Sequence record: NC_073075
From: Escherichia phage ZCEC10
Strand: one strand, 5' to 3'
DNA length: 44,776 bases
Part shown: one piece after another, positions 4,242-30,401 of the stretch
Position numbering within the stretch: the first letter of the stretch is position 1
Layout: each line of letters opens with the position of its first letter
Made by a program: the position numbers and the translations under genes
Notes under the pieces: generated by a model
Database searches by the model: none
Seen by the model: the letters and a program-made list of their open reading frames with translations, nothing else
Told to the model about the DNA's origin: nothing

Positions 4242-4780
4242 AATTACTATTTCGCCGTAAGCACGATGGCAAAATCCTGAAGCCGAGCCAGACCCTGGAT
4301 TCCTACGTCCGCCTACAAAACGCGGCAGGCAATCGGGTGTGGCGGGCGCCGAAACACACGCTGCCGCAGTTCTTCGACGTACTCACGCACGATATTGAGC
4401 GCGGCGATGTGCTGCGTGATATCCGCGACGGGCAACTGTGGATCGTGGGGTATGTTGGTTTTTACCGCATTCGTATGCAGACCCGCGCGGGTGGAGTTGC
4501 GGGCAACATACAGAGGGGTATGACCTACTTCGAGCTGGTCAACTACGAGCGCGTAGGCCGCAAATACTGCCTGCGCAACCGCCAGCCGCATGAGCGCGCT
4601 ACTTACGACGCTACCCAGGTGCAATCTAAAATTCGCCATGCCACGCGTGAGATAGTCAATCGCTTTGATGCCGTGACGAATGCACAGCGCCAGGCGCGGG
4701 AATACGGCGTGGGATTCATCCGTGTCGAACAAGACGGCAGCATGAACGCCATTGACCCGCGCTCGGTGATTCTGAAATGA
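4238..4780 (+). CDS. Hypothetical protein
   Basis: 180-aa ORF with AGGAG RBS 7 nt upstream; opposite-strand ORF 4313..4786 judged a shadow. Confidence 0.6.
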   Translation: MKLLFRRKHDGKILKPSQTLDSYVRLQNAAGNRVWRAPKHTLPQFFDVLTHDIERGDVLRDIRDGQLWIVGYVGFYRIRMQTRAGGVAGNIQRGMTYFELVNYERVGRKYCLRNRQPHERATYDATQVQSKIRHATREIVNRFDAVTNAQRQAREYGVGFIRVEQDGSMNAIDPRSVILK

Positions 4781-4914
4781 GCGCAACTATCCGTGATATG
4801 CTCATGCATAACCGCTTTGAGATAGGCGGTAGGGTGTTTCGCAATTACTTCGTGGCGCGTGCCTGGGCGCGCCATATTGGAAAACCAGAGGGGGCAATAC
4901 GATGCTACACGATT
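4777..4914 (+). CDS. Hypothetical small protein (45 aa)
   Basis: ATGA overlap with upstream stop; low confidence. Confidence 0.25.
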
Positions 4915-4972
4915 TGATATATTGGTTTGGATTGGCCTGCGCGGTACTCCTGATCGGTGTCATGGGGCGTTG
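4901..4972 (+). CDS. Possible 23-aa transmembrane mini-ORF, paralogous to the N-terminus of the next gene
   Basis: MLHDLIYWFGLACAVLLIGVMGR with AGAGGGGG RBS; resembles MIHDVIYWFGMASMLCMVTGVLG of the 4996 ORF. Confidence 0.25.
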
Positions 4973-4995
4973 ATTATTAGTCTGGTTAAATACCT

Positions 4996-5295
4996 ATGGA
5001 GCAGATTATGATTCATGATGTGATTTATTGGTTTGGTATGGCCAGCATGTTATGCATGGTTACGGGAGTGCTGGGCGCAATATGGGTATTCCTAGTATGG
5101 CCTGCGGTGGAAGCTGCCAGCATTACCCGGATGACATTCCAGATATACAAGCGCCGTGGAATCACGGAGCACCCGACCAGGTTGCGCATGTGGTGGCTGT
5201 GGTATCGGGATATGATAGGCGGGCGAACATTCGAAGCCGTCCGGTCGAGTGGATGGGAGTGGAAAGGCGTCGGCAAGTGGTCCGTTTTCGATTAA
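4996..5295 (+). CDS. Small membrane protein (single N-terminal TM), possible lysis regulator
   Basis: 99 aa, hydrophobic N-terminus, basic and Trp-rich C-terminus. Confidence 0.5.
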   Translation: MEQIMIHDVIYWFGMASMLCMVTGVLGAIWVFLVWPAVEAASITRMTFQIYKRRGITEHPTRLRMWWLWYRDMIGGRTFEAVRSSGWEWKGVGKWSVFD

Positions 5296-5314
5296 TTATG
5301 CAAGCGTGATATAG

Positions 5315-5347
5315 TCCCAGTGAGCTAAAACTTACTGGGACTTTTTT
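5315..5347 (+). terminator. Rho-independent terminator
   Basis: 9-bp stem cccagtgag/cttactggg (1 mismatch) followed by CTTTTTT. Confidence 0.55.
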
Positions 5348-5638
5348 ATGGATAAGCTAAACGAGTGGTTATTCGCCCTTGCGTGTCTTGCTGGTGGCTT
5401 CGTGGGCGCACGCATTCACGGCGAGGCAACGAAAGGGCCGTTGAACTTCGTTTTATATGTCGTAGTTGGCTTCCTGTGTGCCATATTTGGTGCGCCAGCT
5501 ATTGCCGAGTGGTCTGGTTTGTCTGGCGAGCGCACTGTCGCCGGTTTGGGCTTCGTAACTGCCATCTTCTGGATGCCAATCGCCGACCGGATCCGGGAGA
5601 CAATTGCGACGCTACACCTTCCGGGGGGCGCAAAATGA
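5348..5638 (+). CDS. Holin-like membrane protein
   Basis: 96 aa with two or three hydrophobic segments, immediately upstream of endolysin. Confidence 0.55.
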   Translation: MDKLNEWLFALACLAGGFVGARIHGEATKGPLNFVLYVVVGFLCAIFGAPAIAEWSGLSGERTVAGLGFVTAIFWMPIADRIRETIATLHLPGGAK

Positions 5639-5880
5639 TTATCTCCGTCCTGTTGTTTGTTATCATAGGGGCTTCGTCCCTGTTTAACGTGTATGCGCCG
5701 TCCGTTCAGGATGGCTTCTTCGGTCGGGTGTTATATCTGCTAACAGCAATGACCTGTATTGTCGGGCTGTTGCAAACGGGAGACGTATCTGATGCCACCT
5801 GGACCGCGTTAATCTGGCTGTTTGCATTGCGCACGCTGCGCAATGCTGTTTTAAATGGGGTAAAACATGCGATTCAGTGA
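5635..5880 (+). CDS. Second small membrane protein (holin or antiholin candidate)
   Basis: 81 aa, two hydrophobic segments; ATGA overlap upstream and overlap with endolysin start. Confidence 0.5.
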   Translation: MIISVLLFVIIGASSLFNVYAPSVQDGFFGRVLYLLTAMTCIVGLLQTGDVSDATWTALIWLFALRTLRNAVLNGVKHAIQ

Positions 5881-6358
5881 CAACGGTCTAAGATTTACGG
5901 CAGCATGGGAGGCTTTCAGCCCAGTGCCGTATTTCGCGACTAAGAAAGAGCAGGCCCGCGGCCTGTATACCTGGGGCTATGGTCACACCGGCACTAATCC
6001 GCCACGAAGCATTACCCGTGCGGAAGCACTGGAGCTACTCAAGCGCGATGTGGCATATGCCGAGAACTGGGTGAACAAGTACGCACACCCGAGCATCAAT
6101 CAGGCGCAATTCGACGCGCTGGTGGACCTGGTAATCAATGCCGGTCCTGGTCCGATCATGCCGGACGACGTAGCCGGTGATTTCGACGATGCGATCCGCC
6201 TGGGCGACTGGGCAAAGGTGCGGGCTATACTGCCACAATTCCGCAAGCAAGGTGGGGAAGTGCTGAAGGGGTTAGTCCGTCGAGCAATCGGCAGGCAGGC
6301 GCTATTCGATGGTAAGCAGTGGGACGTTGCCGAGAAGATCGGACGTAACGCAGCATAA
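5867..6358 (+). CDS. Endolysin, GH24 lysozyme family
   Basis: 163 aa with lysozyme-like motifs (YTWGYGHT...NAGPG). Confidence 0.8.
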   Translation: MRFSDNGLRFTAAWEAFSPVPYFATKKEQARGLYTWGYGHTGTNPPRSITRAEALELLKRDVAYAENWVNKYAHPSINQAQFDALVDLVINAGPGPIMPDDVAGDFDDAIRLGDWAKVRAILPQFRKQGGEVLKGLVRRAIGRQALFDGKQWDVAEKIGRNAA

Positions 6359-6374
6359 TACGGGGTAACACAGT

Positions 6375-6782
6375 ATGTTAAAAAGTATTCTTGATCATAA
6401 CGCCGACGCGCTCGCCGCGCTGGCTAAAACCGAAGACCCAGGCGCACGCGCTATTGTAGCGGATACGATCAGCCATGCGGGGGTGTTTGGCGCAAGCCTT
6501 CCGGGTCCGAAACCAGAGGTGAAAGTGACAAGCGCCACGGTAACGGTAGCTCCCGAGGCGGTTACAATCGGCACCCCGGCGAAGGCTACTGCGGCGGTAC
6601 AACCGGCAGGGGCGACCAATAAATCCGGCGTGTGGGTCAGCGGGTCGCCGACCATTGCCACCGTGGATGCTTCTGGCAATATCACGGGTAAAGCACCTGG
6701 ATCTGTCGATATTATTTGGGTGGCTAAGGATGGAAGCGGGGTGTCGGGCCGCAAAACGGTAACTGTGGCAAACGCAGAGTAA
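6375..6782 (+). CDS. Bacterial Ig-like (Big_2-type) domain protein
   Basis: 135 aa; C-terminal TVTVAPEAVTIG...ATAAVQP...TIATVDASGNITGKAPGSVDIIWVAKDGSGVSGRKTVTV matches the Big_2 beta-sandwich pattern. Confidence 0.55.
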   Translation: MLKSILDHNADALAALAKTEDPGARAIVADTISHAGVFGASLPGPKPEVKVTSATVTVAPEAVTIGTPAKATAAVQPAGATNKSGVWVSGSPTIATVDASGNITGKAPGSVDIIWVAKDGSGVSGRKTVTVANAE

Positions 6783-6787
6783 TGAGC

Positions 6788-6815
6788 AAGCCCGCCGTAT
6801 TGGCGGGCTTTTTAT
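6788..6815 (+). terminator. Rho-independent terminator
   Basis: Stem agcccgcc/ggcgggct with loop gtatt, followed by TTTTTATT. Confidence 0.75.
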
Positions 6816-6900
6816 TGTTCGACCTGCGACCAATTAATATCCCATACTGCGGTCGCCGTGATATATTGACCGCGGACAATCTGAATCAGGAAGATATGCA

Positions 6901-8043
6901 ATGCACCCGCAAACTAAAATCACCGACGAGCAATTGATCGCCGAGTTGCAATCCGGCACTACCGCGAAAGAGATTGCGAAGAAGTACGGCCTTTCCCTCC
7001 GAAATGTCTACATGCGAAAAGCCCGCCTTTCGAAGAAAGGGATTGGTCACGGCAACGATGCCGTAATCCGTAAGCGCGTTGCCGATGGCTTCGGCGTTAA
7101 GCGCGTATCCGCCCTGGTGCGCGGCAATGGCGAGGAGGTCATGTCCTGGGTCATCACCGAGCAGGACAAGGAGCGCCAACTCGAGGCAATGCGCGCCGTT
7201 GTCGAAGGGATGAACAGCGAAATCACACCGGCAGCGCCAGTAAACGCCCCGCCAGTACCGATCCAGGCGCTCGACTTACTCAACCTGTACACCGTGTCAG
7301 ACTTCCACCTGGGCATGTTGGCCTGGGGCGAGGAGACTGGCGAAGACTGGGATATGGCGATTGCCGAAGACCTGTTCTACCGCTGGTTTGTCGAAGCCTT
7401 CGCACGCGCACCAGATGCAGGCACTGCCGTAATTAATATCCTCGGTGATATGGCGCACTTTGATAGCCTTGATGCCGTCACACCTGCCAGCGGTCACATA
7501 CTGGACGCTGACACCCGCTACCAGAAACTGGTCCGATACATGATTCGCATGGTGCGCAACGTAGTCGAACTGGCGCTGCAAAAACACCACAAAGTCAAAC
7601 TGCTAATCGTCCAGGGGAATCATGACGAGTCGGGTATGATTTGGCTGGCTGAGATGTTCAATACTCTGTACGAGAACGAGCCGCGCGTCGATGTGGATAC
7701 GTCCCCTGACGTCTACAAAATGGTGCAGCACGGCAAGACCACGCTATTCTTCCACCACGGGCACAAAGCGCGATTCGATGCGATCGAGCAGGTTATGATT
7801 TCTAAATTCAGACAGGCTTTCGGGTCCAGTGAGTACAGCTACGCGCACGTAGGCCACTTGCACCACCAGAAGATTGTAGAATCCCGCAACATGATTGTTG
7901 AACAGCACCGAACACTCGCCGCGAAAGACGCATATGCCAGCCGTGGTGGTTGGATGTCCGGTCGCAGCGCAAACGTCATCACCTACAGCGCCAACTACGG
8001 CGAAGTAGCGCGCTTAACCATTAGCCCGGAAATGTTGAAGTAA
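6901..8043 (+). CDS. HTH domain fused to a calcineurin-like metallophosphoesterase
   Basis: 380 aa; N-terminal HTH (TAKEIAKKYGLSLRNVYMRKARL); metallophosphatase motifs DFHLG, GDMAHFD, QGNHDE, HHGHK, GHLHHQ. Confidence 0.7.
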   Translation: MHPQTKITDEQLIAELQSGTTAKEIAKKYGLSLRNVYMRKARLSKKGIGHGNDAVIRKRVADGFGVKRVSALVRGNGEEVMSWVITEQDKERQLEAMRAVVEGMNSEITPAAPVNAPPVPIQALDLLNLYTVSDFHLGMLAWGEETGEDWDMAIAEDLFYRWFVEAFARAPDAGTAVINILGDMAHFDSLDAVTPASGHILDADTRYQKLVRYMIRMVRNVVELALQKHHKVKLLIVQGNHDESGMIWLAEMFNTLYENEPRVDVDTSPDVYKMVQHGKTTLFFHHGHKARFDAIEQVMISKFRQAFGSSEYSYAHVGHLHHQKIVESRNMIVEQHRTLAAKDAYASRGGWMSGRSANVITYSANYGEVARLTISPEMLK

Positions 8044-8062
8044 CGGCGACCCGTAACCCTCC

Positions 8063-8089
8063 CAGCCTGCCGATTTGGTGGGCTTTTTT
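8063..8089 (+). terminator. Putative rho-independent terminator
   Basis: Imperfect stem agcctgcc/ggtgggct followed by TTTTTT. Confidence 0.45.
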
Positions 8090-8094
8090 GTGCC

Positions 8095-8103
8095 TGTTAT
8101 AAT
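8095..8103 (+). promoter_or_regulatory. Possible extended -10 promoter element (TGtTATAAT) upstream of terminase small subunit
   Basis: TGTTATAAT at 8095..8103 about 70 nt upstream of the ATG at 8174. Confidence 0.35.
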
Positions 8104-8173
8104 CCCAATTAGATGGCAGGGCCGTCTCCTATGTTGCCGATGGTCGGCGCATATGCACAAAAGGGCTTATATC

Positions 8174-8725
8174 ATGGCAGAAATCAAAGTTAAGGGCCGA
8201 CGCGCCAAACTGGACGGACGAGTGGCAGTAACCCCGCGCCGTAAACCAGGCGAGCAAACAGAACATACCAATCTCGGACCTGAGATCGAATATGGCAAGC
8301 GTCGTAAAGGCGGCAAATGTGGGCGCCCTACTGACTACCGATCCGTTTACTGCGACCAGCTTCGCCGCTATTTTGCCGACGCCGACGCCTGGCAGGTAAA
8401 CTACTCCGATAAAGGCGCTGCGCAAGTAATCCCCCGCAACAAAATGCCAACCTTCGGTCGATTTGCCGCGGAAATCGGCGTGGGCGTAGCTTGCCTGTAT
8501 CGCTGGGCGCGTGCGCATGAGGAGTTCGCCGAGGCGATGGCGGACGCTATGGAGTTGCAGAAAACATTCCTGATGGAAGCTGGCGGCGTGACCATCGCGG
8601 CAGGCTTCGCTACGTTCCTACTTAAAGCCAACCACGGCGTCCGCGATGATGTTCCACTGGATGACGACGAAGATGATAACGGCGACGTCGTTGTGGAACC
8701 TACCGGCAAAGGCCAGGGTGAGTAA
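8174..8725 (+). CDS. Terminase small subunit
   Basis: 183 aa directly upstream of and overlapping the large terminase; HTH-like segment PTFGRFAAEIGVGVACLYRWARAHEEFAEA; acidic C-terminus. Confidence 0.6.
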   Translation: MAEIKVKGRRAKLDGRVAVTPRRKPGEQTEHTNLGPEIEYGKRRKGGKCGRPTDYRSVYCDQLRRYFADADAWQVNYSDKGAAQVIPRNKMPTFGRFAAEIGVGVACLYRWARAHEEFAEAMADAMELQKTFLMEAGGVTIAAGFATFLLKANHGVRDDVPLDDDEDDNGDVVVEPTGKGQGE

Positions 8726-10110
8726 TGCGTAACTATGCGGCAGAACATCGCGCCCTTGAACGAGCGATCGCAAAGCGAAACCGACCGCCGCGCCCGACAC
8801 GCGTTGCGCAGGCAGTCCGCCTTTACCAGCCTGATTGCCTTCCCCACCAGGTTGAACTACTGCGCGACACGAAGACTAAAATCCTCGGCCTGTGTTCCGG
8901 CTTCGGTGGCGGCAAGTCATGGGTTGCGGCGAGAAAGGTCATCCAGCTTCTGACACTGAACCCTGGTCATGACGGCATCGTGACCGAGCCGACTATCCCA
9001 CTCCTGGTTAAAATCATGTACCCGGAATTGGAAAAGGCGTTTGACGAGGCTGGCTTCCGGTGGAAGTTCAATAAGCAGGACAAGATTTATAGCGTTCTGG
9101 TGAAAGGAAAATGGACCCGCGTTATCTGCGAGTCAATGGAGAACTACACCCGCCTAATCGGGGTTAACGCCGCGTGGATTGTTGCCGATGAATTCGATAC
9201 CACGAAGCAAGACGTCGCGATGGCGGCATATCACAAATTGCTTGGTCGTCTGCGTGCTGGCTTGGTGCGCCAGTTCGTCATCGTGTCCACGCCTGAAGGC
9301 TTCCGGGCGATGTACCAGATTTTCGAAGTGGAGAAGGATAGCCAGAAGCGTTTGATCCGGGCGAAGACTACCGATAATCACCACTTACCGGCAGACTTCA
9401 TCGACACGCTGCGCAGTCAGTACCCGGCTAACCTGATTGATGCGTACCTGAACGGCCTGTTTGTCAACCTTACGTCTGGCGCGGTGTACAAGATGTTCAA
9501 CCGGGAGGAGAACGCCAGCACCGAAGAAGTGCAGCCGGAAGACACGCTGATTATCGGTATGGACTTTAACGTCACGAAAATGGCGGCGGTCGTGTACGTC
9601 CGACGGCAGCGCATCACCGAAAACAAGGAGTTCCGCGACGAGATACACGCAGTGGATGAATTTGTGGACCTGTTTGACACCCCGGCTATGATTGAGGCGA
9701 TCGAGGAGCGCTACCCCGATCATTGTGCTGCCGGTCGGGTCGTCGTTTACCCGGATAGCAGCGGCAAGTCCCGCAAGACTGTCAACGCATCGTCGTCAGA
9801 TATCGCACAACTGGAAGACGCGGGCTTCGAGGTGGAGTACGACAGCGTTAACCCACCTGTGAAAGACCGATTGATCGCGATGAATACGATGATGTGCAAC
9901 TCGAAGGGCGTGCGCCAGTATTTTGTCAACCTGGATAAATGCCCTACACTAGCGAAATGCCTGGAACAGCAGGTTTACGACCTGAAGAAAGGCGAGCCGG
10001 ATAAAACCGCTGGGGTGGACCACATGAACGATGCCGCGGGCTATCCAATTGCGCACCTGTTCCCAGTAATTCGTCCGATCGCCGTTGTTCCAACTGTAGA
10101 CTTCTACTAA
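8725..10110 (+). CDS. Terminase large subunit
   Basis: 461 aa; Walker A-like LCSGFGGGKSW, ATPase and nuclease layout, position between terS and portal. Confidence 0.9.
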   Translation: MRNYAAEHRALERAIAKRNRPPRPTRVAQAVRLYQPDCLPHQVELLRDTKTKILGLCSGFGGGKSWVAARKVIQLLTLNPGHDGIVTEPTIPLLVKIMYPELEKAFDEAGFRWKFNKQDKIYSVLVKGKWTRVICESMENYTRLIGVNAAWIVADEFDTTKQDVAMAAYHKLLGRLRAGLVRQFVIVSTPEGFRAMYQIFEVEKDSQKRLIRAKTTDNHHLPADFIDTLRSQYPANLIDAYLNGLFVNLTSGAVYKMFNREENASTEEVQPEDTLIIGMDFNVTKMAAVVYVRRQRITENKEFRDEIHAVDEFVDLFDTPAMIEAIEERYPDHCAAGRVVVYPDSSGKSRKTVNASSSDIAQLEDAGFEVEYDSVNPPVKDRLIAMNTMMCNSKGVRQYFVNLDKCPTLAKCLEQQVYDLKKGEPDKTAGVDHMNDAAGYPIAHLFPVIRPIAVVPTVDFY

Positions 10111-10121
10111 GGAAAACGACC

Positions 10122-11642
10122 ATGACCGTTAACGTTGACAACCAGCACCCACTATATGCGCGCATCGCGCCAGAGTGGAAGATGATTCGTGACTGTGTAG
10201 CAGGCGAGCGCGCCGTGAAGGCGTGTGGTCCTTTGTACCTGCCTCATCCCGCCAGTGGCGATAACACTGACCCGAAAGCACGGGCGCGGTATAAGGCGTA
10301 CAAGCAACGCGCTGTATTCCTGAACGCCACCGCCCGCACACTTAACGCGCTGTTAGGCGTTGCCTTTGCTAAACCGGTAAGTCTGGACCTTTCCGGGGCG
10401 ATGGCTGACCTGATTGACGACGTAGACGGCAGTGGTATGCCGCTGCCGCAACTCCTGCGCGGTGCTATGTCGGAAGTGCTGCAATCAGGCCGTGCGGGCT
10501 TTATGGTTGACTACGACCGCCAGGCGCATTTTGATGAACTGGGTAACGTAGTGCCGCAGACAGCCGCCGAGATGGCGTCACACCGCCCGCTTATCCGCTT
10601 ATATACGGCAGAACAGATCATCAACTGGCGGCAGACCCACGGCGTCGATACGCTGATTGTTCTGAAGGAAACGGACGAAATCAGCACCGAAGACCCGGAC
10701 GACTTCGCAAACCACGAAGTAACAATCTGGACCGAGCTTCGCATGATTAACGGTGCGGCACACGCCCGCCGCTGGTTTTATAATGCGGACACGTCCGAGG
10801 TGCAAATGGACTTGCCGCGGGGGTTTACCCGTACCGATCTTGTGCCGCTGGTGGATGCCGCCGGTAAGGCGCTGACACAACTCCCGTTTTGCTGGTGTGG
10901 TGCGGTGGACAACAACGCAACGCCGGACGCCGCGCCGCTGGCTGATATTGCGTCCATCAACATTAAGCACTACAACGCCGAAGCGGACGTCGCCGAGATT
11001 GCGCACATAGTGGGCCAACCAACCCTGGTTGCGACGGGCTTGACTCAATCATGGGCGGACAAAAACCTGAAAGGCGGCATCGCGCTCGGTGCGACTAAGG
11101 GCGTTATCCTGGGCCAGAACATGGACGCTAAACTGATCCAGGCGGAGGAGCGCAACTTGTCGGTTGCACTGTGTGAGCGTCGCGAATTGCAAATGGCTAA
11201 ACTTGGTGCGGCCCTGGTTGAGAAGGGGACTGCACCTAAGACGGCAACTGAAGCGGCCTACGATGCGCAGACTGATAACAGTATCTTGTCCCTGATTGCC
11301 GGTAACGTTGAGAAGGCTTTCAACCGCGCGTTGCAAATCGTCCAGCTATTCACGGGAGACACCGCCGACCAGCGTGTGACGCTGAATAAGTTCTACACCG
11401 AAATCACGGTTGATGCGCAGCTTATGACCGCGATGATGTCGGGGGTGCAGACTGGCACGGTCCGCCTGGCCGATTTCATCAAGTGGATGATGGCGCAGGG
11501 CGTCATCGACGACTCGCAAACCGTCGAGCAGGTGGAAGACGAATTGCGAAATCAGAATCCATTGCCTCAAATGTCCCCTGATGCGGTAGAATCTACCGAA
11601 GAAGACCCGGACAAGGTAGCGGACAATGGCGAAGACAATTAA
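10122..11642 (+). CDS. Portal protein
   Basis: 506 aa immediately after terminase, acidic C-terminus. Confidence 0.8.
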   Translation: MTVNVDNQHPLYARIAPEWKMIRDCVAGERAVKACGPLYLPHPASGDNTDPKARARYKAYKQRAVFLNATARTLNALLGVAFAKPVSLDLSGAMADLIDDVDGSGMPLPQLLRGAMSEVLQSGRAGFMVDYDRQAHFDELGNVVPQTAAEMASHRPLIRLYTAEQIINWRQTHGVDTLIVLKETDEISTEDPDDFANHEVTIWTELRMINGAAHARRWFYNADTSEVQMDLPRGFTRTDLVPLVDAAGKALTQLPFCWCGAVDNNATPDAAPLADIASINIKHYNAEADVAEIAHIVGQPTLVATGLTQSWADKNLKGGIALGATKGVILGQNMDAKLIQAEERNLSVALCERRELQMAKLGAALVEKGTAPKTATEAAYDAQTDNSILSLIAGNVEKAFNRALQIVQLFTGDTADQRVTLNKFYTEITVDAQLMTAMMSGVQTGTVRLADFIKWMMAQGVIDDSQTVEQVEDELRNQNPLPQMSPDAVESTEEDPDKVADNGEDN

Positions 11643-12729
11643 TCAATATATGGCGGATCGAATGATTCGCCGGCACATCTTCACCCAGCGCCTGAGCAAT
11701 GACCAGGCGCGGAGGGTGCTGGCTATGTGGGAGAAGTTCCGGCCCACGTTACTGGGTAAGCTGACCGAGTTACTTGATGGCAAAAAGTCCATGAACAACA
11801 AGGCACTTACCACACTATTAACGCAACTCGACAAGACCGTAAAAACGGAACTGCGCGCCGAGTTTAAAGTGCTGGCGGAGCGCCTTCAGGAGTTCGCCGA
11901 CACCGAGGCTGATTATCTCGCTGACACACTAACGGCAGCGATCCAGCCCGTTGTCGCCGTACCCGCTGTTGAAGTAGTTGGCGTTGTTACCGGCGCGCAG
12001 ATTGCAGCGACGGCAATGAAAAACCCGTTCCAGGGTAATACTATGATGCAATGGCCTGATTCCCTTTCCGAGTGGACCAGGACGCAGATCGGCAATCAGG
12101 TGCGCGCCGGATTCATCCAGGGCAAGCCAACGATGGAAATTATCGCGGACGTGAGGCGCGCGCTCGGCGGTCGTAGTGCGCAAGCAATCTCAAGCGTTGT
12201 TAAGTCCGCGGTCAACCACTATGCGGCGACCGCCCGCGAATTAATGGTAAAAGCTAATGACGATATTCTCGAAGGTCGCCAATGGTTGGCTACATTGGAC
12301 ACGCATACTTCTCCCATGTGCCAGCTACGCGATCGCCTGTTTTATCCGGTTGATGTTACTCCCGACACCAAAGGCAAGCGCGGCGGGAAAGTGGTGGCTG
12401 GATCACAATATGGCGCTGGTCCGGGCAAGCTGCATTATTGCTGCCGTTCGACGGAGACGTGGACAGTTAAGGGCATGGAAGATTGGCCCAGTGGTAAGCG
12501 TCCGGCACTGAAGGCTGAAGCGGGCAGATTGCTGAGTGAGCAGGTCGACGCGCAGACTGATTTCTTCTCATGGGTGCAGCGCCAGCCGCGCCATATTCTG
12601 GAGGAATTATATGGAGTGCAGCGCGCCGACCAGATTATGCGCGGCGTGAAAGTGCCGAAGATGTTCACTGACACCGGCGAACTGATGACTATTGCACAGC
12701 TTAAAAACCGGGGGTTATGGCGTGATTAA
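11626..12729 (+). CDS. Head morphogenesis / minor capsid protein (Mu F / SPP1 gp7-like)
   Basis: 367 aa following portal with start overlapping portal stop. Confidence 0.7.
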   Translation: MAKTINQYMADRMIRRHIFTQRLSNDQARRVLAMWEKFRPTLLGKLTELLDGKKSMNNKALTTLLTQLDKTVKTELRAEFKVLAERLQEFADTEADYLADTLTAAIQPVVAVPAVEVVGVVTGAQIAATAMKNPFQGNTMMQWPDSLSEWTRTQIGNQVRAGFIQGKPTMEIIADVRRALGGRSAQAISSVVKSAVNHYAATARELMVKANDDILEGRQWLATLDTHTSPMCQLRDRLFYPVDVTPDTKGKRGGKVVAGSQYGAGPGKLHYCCRSTETWTVKGMEDWPSGKRPALKAEAGRLLSEQVDAQTDFFSWVQRQPRHILEELYGVQRADQIMRGVKVPKMFTDTGELMTIAQLKNRGLWRD

Positions 12730-13051
12730 ATATGCAGCGATTGGACTGGTTATCGGTCTGGCGGTAGGATTCTGGCTGGGTGACTCCTATCGCGCTGGCG
12801 TAGTGGCGGAGGCGGCGCAAGAAGCGCAAGCCAAAGCCCAACGGCAGCAAACTAAAGTTGTTGAGCGCTCCGTGCAGGCAGAACAAGCCCGCGACGTGGA
12901 ATACCGGACTATCACGAAAGAGGTTGTTAAATATGTTACGCGCCCTAACCGCCCTGATTGTAGTTTTGATGCTGAGCGCGTGCGGATCAAGCAACGTGCC
13001 GTTGATGCCGCTAACGGAGTCGGCACTGCGACCGCCGTGCAAGTTCGATAA
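12722..13051 (+). CDS. i-spanin (Rz-like); start uncertain (GTG 12722 or TTG 12692)
   Basis: N-terminal TM AAIGLVIGLAVGFWLG followed by a charged coiled-coil region; contains an embedded out-of-frame lipoprotein gene. Confidence 0.5.
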   Translation: MIKYAAIGLVIGLAVGFWLGDSYRAGVVAEAAQEAQAKAQRQQTKVVERSVQAEQARDVEYRTITKEVVKYVTRPNRPDCSFDAERVRIKQRAVDAANGVGTATAVQVR

Positions 13052-13163
13052 CCCGTCCGCAGACCCCGACGAGGATTTGATGATTGACGTGAAAAATATG
13101 GAATGCGGGGCGAAGCTGAGGGCGCAGGTCCTGGAGTTGCAGCAAATAATTAAGGGGCCGTAA
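12933..13163 (+). CDS. o-spanin (Rz1-like lipoprotein) embedded in/overlapping the i-spanin gene
   Basis: 76 aa, signal peptide with lipobox LSAC, Pro-rich mature part; RBS AAAGAGG. Confidence 0.55.
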   Translation: MLRALTALIVVLMLSACGSSNVPLMPLTESALRPPCKFDNPSADPDEDLMIDVKNMECGAKLRAQVLELQQIIKGP

Positions 13164-15251: not shown

Positions 15252-16352
15252 ATGTCTTTAACAGTGTTCCAGCGTAAACTCGTTACCGCGGTTACGCAAA
15301 TGATCCCCGACAACCTGAACGTTTTCAACGCCGCCGCCAATGGCGCTGTTGTTCTCGGTACTGGTGAAGTGCTGAAGGACGTTATTGAGAAAATGTCCGT
15401 AGGCTTGATCGCCAACCTCGTTACCGACCGTAACGCCTACGCCCCTGTTGGCACTCCGGCAACCGCGAAAGTGCTGGCGCGTATGCTGACCAACTCGGTT
15501 AACCTTTCCGCAAAAGTGGGTCCGGTAGCAATCACTAAGGCTATGATGGCTAAGATCGAAACCAACGTTAACAGCGTTGCGGCTGAGATCGCGGCACAGG
15601 CTACTCAAGCGATTATGCTGCACTACCTGAAAGCTGGTATCGGCGCAAGTAAAGCGGCGATCGAAAGCAACGCAGCGGCAAAATACACCCAACCGGCGCG
15701 CGTTGACGGCGTTGGCGGTCGTACCTTCCCGACCCTGGCAGACTTCCCGCTGGCGGCTTCTAAGTTCGGCGATCAGGCGTCTTTGATTAAGTCCTGGTTT
15801 ATGGACGGCGTTACCTGGGCAAACTTCATTGCGTACCAGGCACTCCCTTCCGCTGAACAGGTATTCGCAATTGGCGATCTCCAGGTAATGGGTGATGGCC
15901 TGGGCCGTCGCTTCATTATCTCCGATGCCGCTGCCGATGCTATGGGGGCTGGTAACATGCTGGGTCTGGTCCCTGGCGCGGTTGCAGTTACCACCAACGG
16001 CCTCGATATGCTGGCGCAGGAGAAAGGCGGTAACGAGAACATCGAGCGCTGGTGGCAGGGCGAGTTCGACTTCAACGTGGCTGTTAAAGGCTACCGTCTG
16101 AAGGCGTCCGCTCGTACCCCGATCGAAGGCGTCCGCTCGTTCAAGCTGGACGATATCACCACTTCCGCTAACTGGGAGCTGGACCAGGGCCAGGTAGACA
16201 ACGCACCGGCAACCGTTCAGGATGTTGGCGCTGTGGGTGACGGCGATACTAAAGGCCGTCGTAAGACCCAGGCCGCACAGGCAGTGCCTACCCGCCACAT
16301 CAAGGAAACCGCTGGTGTACTGGTTACGCTGACGGCGACCACAGCGTCCTGA
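15252..16352 (+). CDS. Major capsid protein
   Basis: 366 aa after the scaffold gene, followed by a strong terminator; the antisense ORF 15258..16361 is a shadow. Confidence 0.75.
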   Translation: MSLTVFQRKLVTAVTQMIPDNLNVFNAAANGAVVLGTGEVLKDVIEKMSVGLIANLVTDRNAYAPVGTPATAKVLARMLTNSVNLSAKVGPVAITKAMMAKIETNVNSVAAEIAAQATQAIMLHYLKAGIGASKAAIESNAAAKYTQPARVDGVGGRTFPTLADFPLAASKFGDQASLIKSWFMDGVTWANFIAYQALPSAEQVFAIGDLQVMGDGLGRRFIISDAAADAMGAGNMLGLVPGAVAVTTNGLDMLAQEKGGNENIERWWQGEFDFNVAVKGYRLKASARTPIEGVRSFKLDDITTSANWELDQGQVDNAPATVQDVGAVGDGDTKGRRKTQAAQAVPTRHIKETAGVLVTLTATTAS

Positions 16353-18461: not shown

Positions 18462-19187
18462 ATGGGTTATCAACTTCCTAACGGGTCCAGCGTCCAGATT
18501 GGGTCCGTACTGGGTAGCGGCATCGCTGTTACGGCGGCTACCAACGCCGCAGCGTCGATCTCCGACCTTACGCAAGGTTGCGTAATTACCTGTGCGGCTT
18601 CGCATGGTCTGGTTGTTGGCGACGTTGTTATGTTCACTAAAACCCCGTGGGTCCGAGCGCTTAACCGCGCATTCATCGTGGGTAAAGTGGACACCAACAA
18701 CGTTACGCTGGCGCGCTTCGACACCGAAGACGTCACAAAATACCCGACCGGCGCTTTCAGCGTAGGCACTCCGGGCGAAGTGGTGAAGGTGTCGGGCTTT
18801 ATCGACTTCCCTTTCATTACTAACGTTGCCGTGTCTGGTGGCGACCAGCAGACGACTACCTTCCAGCCGTTGCAGGTGAACACCGCAATCAGTCTGAACA
18901 CCACGAAAAACCCGTTGGTACAGACTTACACTTTCACCCACGACGAAGAAGACCCGATCCGCCCAATCCTGGAAGACCTGGACGACACACAGAAAACCAC
19001 TGTGATTAAGTTCACGAACCCAGCGGCAGCAAGCGGCAAAGGTGAAATCCGTATTTACCCTGCTAAGGTATCTTTCCAGAAGATTCCGTCCGCTGAAGTA
19101 AACAACGTGGAAACAGTACAATCCACTCTGACCATGCAGTCTGATATGGTTATCTACCGTAAGGATCTGGTCGAGGCATTGTCTTGA
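18462..19187 (+). CDS. Major tail (tube) protein
   Basis: 241 aa; AGGAG RBS; followed by strong terminator and the chaperone frameshift pair. Confidence 0.7.
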   Translation: MGYQLPNGSSVQIGSVLGSGIAVTAATNAAASISDLTQGCVITCAASHGLVVGDVVMFTKTPWVRALNRAFIVGKVDTNNVTLARFDTEDVTKYPTGAFSVGTPGEVVKVSGFIDFPFITNVAVSGGDQQTTTFQPLQVNTAISLNTTKNPLVQTYTFTHDEEDPIRPILEDLDDTQKTTVIKFTNPAAASGKGEIRIYPAKVSFQKIPSAEVNNVETVQSTLTMQSDMVIYRKDLVEALS

Positions 19188-30164: not shown

Positions 30165-30190
30165 AAAAGCCCCGTTCGGGGCTTATTTGC
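30164..30190. terminator. Bidirectional terminator between convergent genes
   Basis: A-run, stem gcccc/ggggc with loop gttc, then T-rich tract. Confidence 0.65.
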
Positions 30191-30401
30191 AGGTTGTTCT
30201 TTTGAAGTTGTCGATAGACACATACTGGAAGTTGAATGGGTATCCCGCCCGTAACATTTTATGACCGCTAACGTCTGCAACCCCAAACACAGGGACGGAA
30301 TACTCCATACCACTATTCATGTATGTTGCGTCGCAGATTTTAGACGGCATGTCGGCACAACCGGACAAAAGAACCGCACAAATCATAATTAAAGTTTTCA
30401 T
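30183..30401 (-). CDS. Small lipoprotein, candidate Cor/Llp-like superinfection exclusion protein
   Basis: 72 aa from the ATG at 30401 (AGGAG RBS); signal peptide with lipobox LLSGC; antisense gene beside the receptor-binding genes. Confidence 0.55.
   Translation of the reverse strand: MKTLIMICAVLLSGCADMPSKICDATYMNSGMEYSVPVFGVADVSGHKMLRAGYPFNFQYVSIDNFKRTTCK

What the first reader, a model, noticed from the sequence alone, without database searches (positions are those of the whole stretch)
6375..6782. Stand-alone Ig-like domain protein encoded at the end of the lysis operon
Phage Ig-like (Big_2) domains are normally parts of virion proteins, but this 135-aa protein is encoded right after the endolysin and before a strong terminator, far from the structural genes. 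It could be a capsid or tail decoration protein expressed from an unusual place, or a secreted/periplasmic adhesin-like factor.
Basis: partly seen in the sequence, partly recalled or inferred. Interest (0 to 1): 0.4.

Follow-up and report, generated by a model that had tools for sequence, protein, structure and literature searches.

The report
Capsid decoration protein carrying Ig domain
The 135-aa gene after the endolysin of this E. coli phage (ZCEC11, genus Dhillonvirus) is most likely a small head-decoration protein: a 45-residue helical anchor, already seen bound in a solved capsid of a near-identical phage, joined by a proline linker to an optional, swappable Ig-like domain that would stick out from the head.

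Summary
The ORF is real: 6375-6782 (+), 135 aa, with a Big_2 domain at residues 51-122. It lies 16 nt after the endolysin and 5 nt before a strong hairpin terminator. The window is Escherichia phage ZCEC11/ZCEC12 (Dhillonvirus).

The protein is not a bare Ig domain. Residues 1-48 are near-identical to PDB 9zys chain H, "Decoration protein gp64" (55 aa). That chain is deposited together with seven chains of a major capsid protein that is 362/366 identical to the window's.

About 145 Dhillonvirus records carry the anchor. Most encode only a 53-aa form (anchor plus proline tail). About 40 add an Ig domain, in at least three divergent classes. Anchor and Ig domain recombine independently, and both are under purifying selection.

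In phage EE09, published mass spectrometry found the 137-aa orthologue in filtered lysate. It was also one of only four phage proteins detected in infected cells.

The spanins lie elsewhere, inside the head module, so this is not a lysis gene. It has no signal peptide, so it is not secreted. The GenBank label "major tail protein" is an Ig-domain artefact.

It is an Ig-bearing variant of a very recently solved decoration family, built like T5 pb10. Interest is moderate to low.

The parts
6375..6782 (+). Whole gene: 135-aa two-module capsid decoration protein (anchor, Pro linker, Ig domain), including the stop codon
   Evidence: ORF list and sequence. 100% identical to the CDS of OK310512 ZCEC11. 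35 homologous protein clusters.
6362..6365 (+). GGGG Shine-Dalgarno-like element 9 nt before the ATG. The gene starts 16 nt after the endolysin stop, with no promoter-like site between them.
   Evidence: Read from the sequence. The promoter scan found no + strand site in 4700-9000.
6375..6500 (+). Anchor module, residues 1-42: two short helices (2-17 and 22-34) followed by the conserved GVF motif. Proposed capsid-binding part.
   Evidence: phrog_11068 E=3.8e-30. PDB 9zys_H 'Decoration protein gp64' E=2.6e-21, residues 1-48. Helices from the AF2 model. dN/dS <=0.12 among non-HK578 alleles. Present in 145 phage records.
6501..6524 (+). Pro-rich linker, residues 43-50 (PGPKPEVK). This is where short and long forms diverge and where recombination joins the modules.
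   Evidence: Alignments A1 and A2. The megablast match to short-form phages ends at window 6509. AF2 model shows coil at residues 35-52.
6525..6779 (+). Big_2 Ig-like display domain, residues 51-135 (pI 9.3)
   Evidence: Pfam Big_2 E=8.4e-12. AF2 pLDDT 83-91. Foldseek hits to T5 pb6, lambda gpV and Big_2-CBM56. dN/dS 0.1-0.3. No paralogue elsewhere in the window.
6788..6818 (+). Intrinsic-terminator-like hairpin plus T-run that closes the holin-holin-endolysin-decoration unit
   Evidence: Terminator scan. RNA fold -24.4 kcal/mol, z=-4.05.
5348..6358 (+). Upstream genes of the same unit: holin (5348-5638), holin (5635-5880) and endolysin (5867-6358). They give the context and the presumed co-transcription.
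   Evidence: PHROG holin families E=1e-30 and 3e-27; endolysin phrog_7 and Pfam Phage_lysozyme. A terminator-like hairpin at 5313-5342 lies upstream of the unit.
15252..16352 (+). Major capsid protein, the inferred binding partner of the anchor
   Evidence: 362/366 identical to PDB 9zys_A 'Major capsid protein gp09', which has 7 chains in the same entry as gp64.

Best explanation
The gene encodes an auxiliary head-decoration protein of a Dhillonvirus.

Shown:
- The N-terminal ~45 residues are essentially the same sequence as a 55-aa chain modelled as 'Decoration protein gp64' in a solved capsid. That capsid's major capsid protein is 99% identical to this phage's.
- The C-terminal 85 residues are a Big_2 Ig-like beta-sandwich.
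- The long form is made in infected cells and is present in lysates of a sister phage.
- Most relatives carry only the anchor.

Inferred:
- The gene is transcribed late, together with the holins and endolysin.
- The protein stays cytoplasmic. Its helical hairpin docks on the outside of expanded capsids. The PDB entry holds two gp64 chains per seven capsid chains, so there may be up to about 120 copies per T=7 head.
- The Pro-rich linker lets the basic Ig domain project into solvent.
- The anchor is the conserved, possibly capsid-stabilising part.
- The Ig domain is a dispensable, exchangeable add-on. By analogy with T4 Hoc, T5 pb10 and lambda gpV it probably makes weak contacts with surface glycans of the host or of mucus, which would raise the encounter rate in the gut.
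For: - Anchor matches a solved decoration protein: phmmer against PDB hits 9zys_H 'Decoration protein gp64' (55 aa) at E=2.6e-21 over residues 1-48, with only conservative changes in residues 1-38.
- Same capsid: window MCP versus 9zys_A is 362/366 identical. The entry holds 7 MCP chains and 2 gp64 chains.
- Other virion parts of the same phage type are also solved and near-identical: tail tube 10lj and portal 10ec.
- Ig domain: Pfam Big_2 E=8e-12; AF2 pLDDT 83-91; Foldseek top hits are virion Ig domains.
- Architecture: helix 2-17, helix 22-34, coil with PGPKP, then the Ig domain. [quoted passage not shown]
- Expression: EE09 CDS40 (137 aa, same locus) gave 3 peptides and 28% coverage in filtered lysate. 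It was one of only 4 phage proteins detected in infected cells at 25 min, whereas the adjacent endolysin was not detected there (PMC10673088).
- Selection: anchor omega <=0.12; Ig omega 0.1-0.3 in unsaturated comparisons.
- Dispensable, modular Ig domain. Short 53-aa forms occur in Gluttony and JLBYU60. About 40 of about 145 records have the long form. Truncated or frameshifted remnants exist: P0031-P0033. The window's anchor is 95% identical to the 137-aa class while its Ig domain is only ~50% identical. Against P0002 the pattern reverses: Ig 98%, anchor 81%.
- Spanin function is covered elsewhere, at 12692-13163.
Against: - I could not see the 9zys coordinates or any paper describing it. The binding site, the copy number and how the depositors identified the chain are therefore unknown to me.
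- The solved chain is the short form. Nobody has shown that the Ig-bearing form occupies the same sites or that the Ig domain fits sterically.
- The EE09 lysate was only filtered at 0.2 um, not purified. Endolysin, terminase and the phosphoesterase were also detected, so virion association of the long form is not proven.
- HK578 has a very divergent anchor allele (~35-40% identity) despite a capsid protein 363/366 identical to the window's. This is unexpected for a tight, specific interface unless only a few positions (R25, G36-V37-F38 and the hydrophobic face) make the contact.
- AF2 confidence for the anchor is only 56-70.
- Glycan binding by the Ig domain is pure analogy.
Confidence: 0.8

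Rival explanations
1. It is a tail protein (a major tail or tail-tube accessory), as annotated in GenBank for ZCEC11, JLBYU60, phiEco273 and Gluttony_ev152.
For: PHROG hits to 'major tail protein' families over residues 46-134. The closest Ig domains by sequence and by fold are the C-terminal domains of the T5-like tail tube protein pb6 and of lambda gpV.
Against: All of these matches cover only the Ig domain, which is promiscuous among virion proteins. The real tail tube protein is 18462-19187: Pfam Phage_tail_3 E=6e-32, and near-identical to PDB 10lj_C 'Tail protein gp15'. It has no Ig domain. The 53-aa forms labelled 'major tail protein' have no tail-like sequence at all. The anchor was modelled in a capsid entry together with MCP chains.
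Confidence: 0.04
2. It is a lysis accessory that occupies the usual spanin slot after the endolysin. For example it could substitute for a spanin or disruptin, or regulate the endolysin or holins.
For: Its position directly after holin-holin-endolysin, in one terminator-bounded unit. A source names one homologue 'lysozyme downstream ORF'.
Against: A canonical overlapping i-spanin/o-spanin pair exists at 12692-13163 (phrog_2536 E=3e-37; phrog_5672 E=2e-26; lipobox LSAC) and is annotated in KarlBarth. The protein has no transmembrane segment, signal peptide, lipobox or cationic amphipathic peptide; the anchor has pI 5.3. The anchor is modelled on a capsid. An Ig domain has no precedent in lysis proteins (my own knowledge).
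Confidence: 0.04
3. It is a secreted or periplasmic adhesin-like factor, or a moron acting on the host surface.
For: Big_2 domains are typical of bacterial surface adhesins such as intimin and LigA, which appear among weaker structural hits. The lysis-to-terminase junction is a classic moron site in lambdoid phages (my own knowledge).
Against: There is no export signal. The first 35 residues form two acidic amphipathic helices. The phage is virulent-type, with no integrase seen in the annotated relatives. The gene shares strand and transcription unit with late genes. The anchor is found on the capsid.
Confidence: 0.02
4. The anchor is the functional decoration protein, and the Ig extension is a neutral or decaying passenger with no function of its own.
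For: Most Dhillonviruses (about 105 of 145) lack it. Truncated and frameshifted remnants exist: P0031-P0033. Ig domains of T4 Hoc and lambda gpV are dispensable in the laboratory (my own knowledge; PMC5292684 discussion).
Against: Intact Ig domains persist in at least three classes that have diverged to ~45-50% identity while keeping the Big_2 core. dN/dS is 0.1-0.3 in unsaturated pairs, for example KarlBarth-EE09 with dS 0.44, dN 0.094. The domain is reassorted as an intact module onto different anchor alleles. This argues that it is maintained by selection where it is present.
Confidence: 0.1

Closest known systems
Decoration protein gp64 of the Dhillonvirus capsid structure PDB 9zys (chain H, 55 aa)
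   Same: Residues 1-48 are near-identical (E=2.6e-21). The genomic slot is the same: gene ~64 at the right end of the map, after the endolysin. The partner capsid protein is 362/366 identical.
   Different: gp64 is the short form, which ends in a Pro-rich tail. The window protein continues through PGPKPE into an 85-residue Big_2 domain that is absent from the solved chain.
Bacteriophage T5 decoration protein pb10 (164 aa; PMC5292684)
   Same: The same three-part layout: N-terminal alpha-helical capsid-binding domain, proline-rich linker, C-terminal solvent-exposed Ig-like domain. In both, the N-terminal part is more conserved than the Ig part.
   Different: No detectable sequence similarity: no pb10 chain appeared among PDB hits at E<=1. 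The pb10 anchor has about 70 residues and five helices and binds as one copy at the hexamer centre of a T=13 capsid. This anchor has about 40 residues and two helices, and the PDB entry holds two copies per asymmetric unit of what is presumably a T=7 capsid. Membership is not claimed; the resemblance is in mechanism only.
T4 Hoc and Hoc-like Ig decoration proteins
   Same: Non-essential capsid decoration that displays Ig-like domains. The proposed role is weak glycan or mucus adherence (own knowledge; cited in PMC5292684). A Hoc-like chain, 7x30_P, is a weak sequence hit to the Ig domain.
   Different: Hoc has three or four Ig domains and a C-terminal anchor. This protein has one Ig domain and an N-terminal anchor. 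The anchors share no homology.
C-terminal Ig-like domains of siphophage tail tube proteins (T5 pb6, DT57C, lambda gpV)
   Same: They are the best sequence and fold matches to residues 46-135: 30-48% identity, Foldseek E about 1e-7, rmsd 1.5-2.4 A. In those proteins too the Ig domain is a dispensable add-on.
   Different: In those proteins the Ig domain is fused to a tail tube fold. Here it is fused to a capsid anchor, and this phage's own tail tube protein has no Ig domain.
Big_2-bearing decoration protein gp29 (255 aa) of PDB 9kmh / 9kzj, and the 337-aa head-module protein of Drexlerviridae phage tinuso
   Same: These are capsid-associated proteins of related siphophages that end in a Big_2 domain similar to this one (E=4e-5 to 9e-5; 42% identity).
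   Different: They have larger, unrelated N-terminal parts and are encoded next to the major capsid gene rather than in the lysis cassette.

Membership tests
Dhillonvirus gp64-type capsid decoration protein (PDB 9zys chain H; phrog_11068) | Sequence homology of the anchor module to the solved chain or family profile | tested here: met
   phmmer E=2.6e-21 over residues 1-48. phrog_11068 E=3.8e-30 over residues 1-49 of a 55-position profile.
Dhillonvirus gp64-type capsid decoration protein (PDB 9zys chain H; phrog_11068) | Conserved genomic slot: the first gene after the endolysin, followed by a terminator | tested here: met
   The same slot is used in ZCEC11, KarlBarth, JLBYU60, Gluttony, EE09, Kenya-K19, StarDew, HK578, Zar3M and Gluttony_ev152.
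Dhillonvirus gp64-type capsid decoration protein (PDB 9zys chain H; phrog_11068) | Cognate capsid protein present | tested here: met
   The window MCP (15252-16352) is 362/366 identical to 9zys_A.
Dhillonvirus gp64-type capsid decoration protein (PDB 9zys chain H; phrog_11068) | Physical binding of this long-form protein to the capsid surface | not testable with these tools
   Only indirect evidence is available: EE09 CDS40 (137 aa) was found in unpurified lysate (PMC10673088). This needs purified virions or cryo-EM.
Pfam Big_2 (PF02368) bacterial/phage Ig-like domain | Score above the Pfam gathering threshold, and a beta-sandwich fold | tested here: met
   45.3 bits against a cut-off of 22.8. 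The AF2 model has 8 strands with pLDDT 83-91. Foldseek probability 1.00 to Big_2 domains.
T5 pb10 decoration protein family | Sequence homology to pb10 | tested here: not met
   No pb10 chain among PDB sequence hits at E<=1, and none among the top Foldseek hits. The similarity lies in architecture and mechanism only.
Siphophage major tail / tail tube protein (GenBank annotation of this ORF) | Tail tube fold (Phage_tail_3 or equivalent) outside the Ig domain | tested here: not met
   Only residues ~46-134 match tail-protein families. The true tail tube protein is 18462-19187.
Spanin (Rz/Rz1) or other lysis accessory | N-terminal transmembrane segment with a periplasmic coiled coil (i-spanin), or a lipobox signal (o-spanin) | tested here: not met
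   A lipobox scan finds none in this ORF. The ORF has no spanin PHROG or Pfam hit. The true spanin pair is at 12692-13163.

The most novel reading that the evidence does not exclude
The ~45-residue anchor would be a genus-specific, minimal capsid tag that evolution uses as a natural phage-display platform. Different Ig alleles would be swapped onto it by recombination, and lost again, to tune adherence to particular host surfaces or mucosal niches. The ZCEC11 allele would then contribute to infection of encapsulated avian-pathogenic O18 E. coli. Its placement in the lysis cassette, with the spanins conversely placed in the head module, would be a functional rewiring that times decoration to the end of the cycle rather than a historical accident.
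Probability: 0.15. Interest if true: 0.6.

Novelty: new variant of a known kind. Interest (0 to 1): 0.33.

Why it matters
- It corrects a widespread misannotation. This gene is variously labelled 'major tail protein', 'putative lysozyme' or 'hypothetical protein' in about 145 Dhillonvirus genomes, several of which are therapy candidates.
- It assigns a function to a genus-wide ORFan (phrog_11068).
- It documents one of the smallest known decoration anchors, one that tolerates a C-terminal fusion in nature. That makes it a ready-made display site on a T=7 HK97-fold capsid for phage engineering.
- Natural pairs of short and long forms on nearly identical capsids offer a clean system for a long-standing question: do phage Ig domains really improve adsorption or mucus retention?
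- It gives no new mechanistic principle. Ig-bearing decoration proteins are well known.

Tried and rejected
- Paralogue search. tblastn of the anchor and of the Ig domain against the window found no second copy, so the domain was not duplicated from this phage's own tail or head genes.
- Spanin or lysis role. Rejected after finding the true spanin pair at 12692-13163.
- Tail protein annotation. Rejected.
- Distant relatives or other fusions of the anchor. An exhaustive phmmer search of 1.84e9 representatives gave 7 hits. All were Dhillonvirus-type except P0038, an actinobacterial repeat wall protein that is spurious. There are therefore no informative fusions outside the genus.
- Literature for the 9zys structure. 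Five searches found no paper: gp64/decoration/cryo-EM, Dhillonvirus with cryo-EM or decoration, and PDB ids. The Shigella phage Sf11 paper was a false lead; its gp64 is an unrelated 52-kDa protein. PMC12309495 deals with a different small Ig-like protein, encoded downstream of the tail-tip J gene.
- The ZCEC11 description paper says nothing about this gene.
- The cos sequence reported for EE09 (ATCTTAAGGG) gives no informative match in the window, so I did not place the genome ends.
- Capsid/anchor co-variation. HK578 has a divergent anchor but a 99% identical MCP, so there is no co-variation signal. I record this as evidence against a very extensive interface.

Full report
**Identity of the window.** The window is the complete 44,776-bp genome of Escherichia phage ZCEC11/ZCEC12. 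These are OK310512 and OK310513, 100% identical over the query, genus Dhillonvirus, host E. coli O18.

**The observation.** An ATG ORF at 6375-6782 (+) encodes 135 aa.
- Pfam Big_2 matches residues 51-122: E=8.4e-12, 45.3 bits, cut-off 22.8.
- The ORF begins 16 nt after the stop of a Phage_lysozyme endolysin (5867-6358). Two holins precede the endolysin, at 5348-5638 and 5635-5880.
- A terminator-like hairpin follows at 6788-6810. It has a 10-bp stem, 7 G-C pairs and a T-run. Its energy is -24.4 kcal/mol, z=-4.05, and 0 of 200 shuffles folded as well.
- Another terminator-like hairpin at 5313-5342 precedes the first holin. Holin-holin-endolysin-ORF therefore looks like one bounded unit.

- The gene is not far from the structural module in any functional sense. 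On the same strand come an HTH-metallophosphatase (6901-8043), the small terminase (ending at 8725), the large terminase (8725-10110), the portal (10122-11642) and the major capsid protein (15252-16352). This is the lambda-like order of lysis genes followed by packaging genes.
- The protein is not a bare Ig domain.

**Two modules.** PHROGs splits the protein.
- Residues 1-49 match phrog_11068, a 55-position family of unknown function, at E=3.8e-30.
- Residues ~46-135 match many 'major tail protein' and 'structural protein with Ig domain' families.

An AlphaFold2 model built from a 27-sequence family alignment shows helix 2-17, helix 22-34 and a coil at 35-52 that contains PGPKPE. An eight-stranded beta-sandwich follows at 53-132. 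pLDDT is 56-70 for the helices and 83-91 for the sandwich. The best Foldseek matches of the sandwich are:
- the Ig domain of the T5 tail tube protein pb6 (E=7e-8, rmsd 1.5 A);
- the DT57C tail tube protein;
- lambda gpV;
- a Big_2-CBM56 pair.

**The decisive result.** A sequence search of the PDB hits 9zys chain H, 'Decoration protein gp64', 55 aa, at E=2.6e-21. Residues 1-48 align without gaps, and residues 1-38 carry only two conservative changes. The window's major capsid protein is 362/366 identical to 9zys chain A, 'Major capsid protein gp09'. The entry holds seven capsid chains and two gp64 chains. The tail tube (10lj, 10xw, 23gd) and the portal (10ec, 11cq) of the same kind of phage are also solved and near-identical to the window's proteins. 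So the anchor module has been modelled on the capsid of a virtually identical virion. I found no paper describing these entries. The binding site and the stoichiometry therefore remain inferences from the chain counts.

**Comparative anatomy.**
- The anchor occurs in 145 phage records, all of them Dhillonvirus-type.
- An exhaustive HMMER scan of 1.84 billion representative proteins finds it nowhere else.
- Most phages encode only a 53-aa form, anchor plus ...LPSPPPPEDPEV, followed directly by a terminator. Examples are Gluttony and JLBYU60.
- About 40 records have a long form. There are at least three classes:
  - the 135-aa ZCEC11 / Kenya-K19 / StarDew / Ioannina class;
  - the 137-aa KarlBarth (Bas17) / EE09 / Zar3M class, whose Ig domain is ~50% identical to the window's;
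  - the HK578 class.
- The modules reassort. The window's anchor is 95% identical to the 137-aa class although its Ig domain is only ~50% identical. Against P0002 the Ig domain is 98% identical but the anchor only 81%. At the DNA level, similarity to short-form phages stops at window 6509, inside the linker.
- Truncated or frameshifted Ig remnants exist: P0031, P0032 and P0033.
- Nei-Gojobori dN/dS is <=0.12 for the anchor. For the Ig domain it is 0.1-0.3 in unsaturated pairs, for example KarlBarth-EE09 with dS 0.44 and dN 0.094.

Both parts are therefore maintained by selection where present, but the Ig part is optional.

**Expression.** Proteomics of phage EE09 (PMC10673088) lists CDS40, a 'hypothetical protein' of 137 aa and 13.6 kDa, with 3 peptides and 28% coverage in cell-free lysate. 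It was one of only four phage proteins seen in infected cells at 25 min. The adjacent lysin was seen only in lysate. EE09_40 lies between the lysin and the phosphoesterase, and its sequence is the 137-aa orthologue. The lysate was filtered, not purified. This shows abundant expression and is consistent with virion association, but does not prove it.

**Alternatives.**
- Lysis role. The slot after the endolysin usually holds spanins. Here an overlapping i-spanin/o-spanin pair sits at 12692-13163, inside the head-morphogenesis module. It matches phrog_2536 at E=3e-37 and phrog_5672 at E=2e-26, has the lipobox LSAC, and is annotated in KarlBarth. The ORF has no transmembrane segment, signal peptide or lipobox.
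- Tail protein. The GenBank label comes from the promiscuous Ig domain. The real tube protein is 18462-19187: Phage_tail_3 at E=6e-32 and PDB 10lj_C. It lacks an Ig domain.
- Secreted adhesin. There is no export signal, and the anchor is found on the capsid.
- Neutral passenger. This is partly plausible given frequent loss, but purifying selection and intact-module reassortment argue against it.

**Mechanism.** The anchor matches a capsid-bound decoration chain, the C-terminal part is an Ig fold, and the protein is expressed in a sister phage; these are shown. The rest is inferred. The protein would be made late, with the lysis genes. Its two-helix hairpin would dock on the expanded capsid, with up to 2 x 60 copies if the PDB entry is the icosahedral asymmetric unit. 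The proline linker would hold the basic Ig domain (pI 9.3) away from the shell. [quoted passage not shown] In pb10 the N-terminal part is more conserved than the Ig part, and the proposed roles are capsid reinforcement and glycan or mucus adherence (PMC5292684). There is no sequence homology to pb10, so this is convergence of design, not family membership.

One oddity remains. HK578 carries a very divergent anchor allele although its capsid protein is 363/366 identical to the window's. Conserved positions are M1, L2, S4, I5, L6, L16, P22, A24, R25, I27, A29, G36-V37-F38 and P43. These are my candidates for the fold core and the contact.

**Verdict.** The adhesin alternative is not. The protein is an Ig-bearing variant of a decoration family that has only just been solved structurally. 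It belongs to the well-known class of Ig-displaying decoration proteins. It is useful for annotation and as a natural display scaffold, but it is not a new principle.

Noticed in passing
window 12692-13163 (+): An overlapping i-spanin/o-spanin pair is embedded in the head-morphogenesis module, between the minor capsid/head-morphogenesis gene and the scaffold. It matches phrog_2536 at E=3e-37 and phrog_5672 at E=2e-26, and has the lipobox LSAC. It lies about 6 kb from the holin-endolysin cassette. Lysis and head genes have in effect swapped one slot each.
   Followed up: partly
window 30183-30401 (-): A 72-aa lipoprotein (MKTLIMICAVLLSGC...) matches the Cor superinfection-exclusion family phrog_1119 at E=4e-26. 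Cor blocks FhuA-dependent phages, which would fit an FhuA-using Dhillonvirus.
   Followed up: partly
window 6375-6782, 8075-8725; L008:1377-1784: Public annotations of this locus are inconsistent. ZCEC11 labels the decoration gene 'major tail protein' and the small terminase 'terminase large subunit'. StarDew labels its orthologue 'putative lysozyme'. The 53-aa forms in JLBYU60 and phiEco273 are labelled 'putative major tail protein'.
   Followed up: yes
window 6901-8043 (+), hairpins 6788-6810 and 8064-8084: A 380-aa protein with an N-terminal HTH and a metallophosphatase domain (phrog_704 'DNA repair exonuclease', E=1e-161) sits alone between two terminator-like hairpins, just upstream of the small terminase. 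Its EE09 orthologue (CDS39) was detected in lysate. Its role, perhaps in packaging or cos processing, is unknown. KarlBarth lacks it at this position and has two small ORFs instead.
   Followed up: no
L009:1501-1902 (HK578) versus window 6375-6500: The type phage HK578 has a strongly divergent anchor allele (MLDSILRRKERIIKTLPAVQNPEARRILAGDMNVSGVF...). Its capsid protein is nevertheless 363/366 identical to the window's, and its Ig domain is close to the 137-aa class. The anchor therefore tolerates much change, or only a few residues contact the capsid.
   Followed up: partly
window 4996-5295 (+), hairpin 5313-5342: A 99-aa protein with an N-terminal hydrophobic segment (phrog_2531, unknown function, E=1e-35) lies immediately upstream of the holins. 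A terminator-like hairpin separates it from them. It could be a further lysis or membrane factor.
   Followed up: no
L013:1763-2776 (phage tinuso, Drexlerviridae): The nearest Ig domains outside the genus include the C-terminus of a 337-aa protein encoded directly upstream of the major capsid gene in Warwickvirus tinuso. This suggests that the same Ig module decorates heads in T1-like phages through a different, larger anchor.
   Followed up: no
PMC12309495; window region downstream of the J-like tail tip gene: Dhillonviruses also encode a different small Ig-like protein (about 11 kDa) just after the tail-tip J gene. [quoted passage not shown] It is unrelated to the ORF studied here and should not be confused with it.
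   Followed up: no
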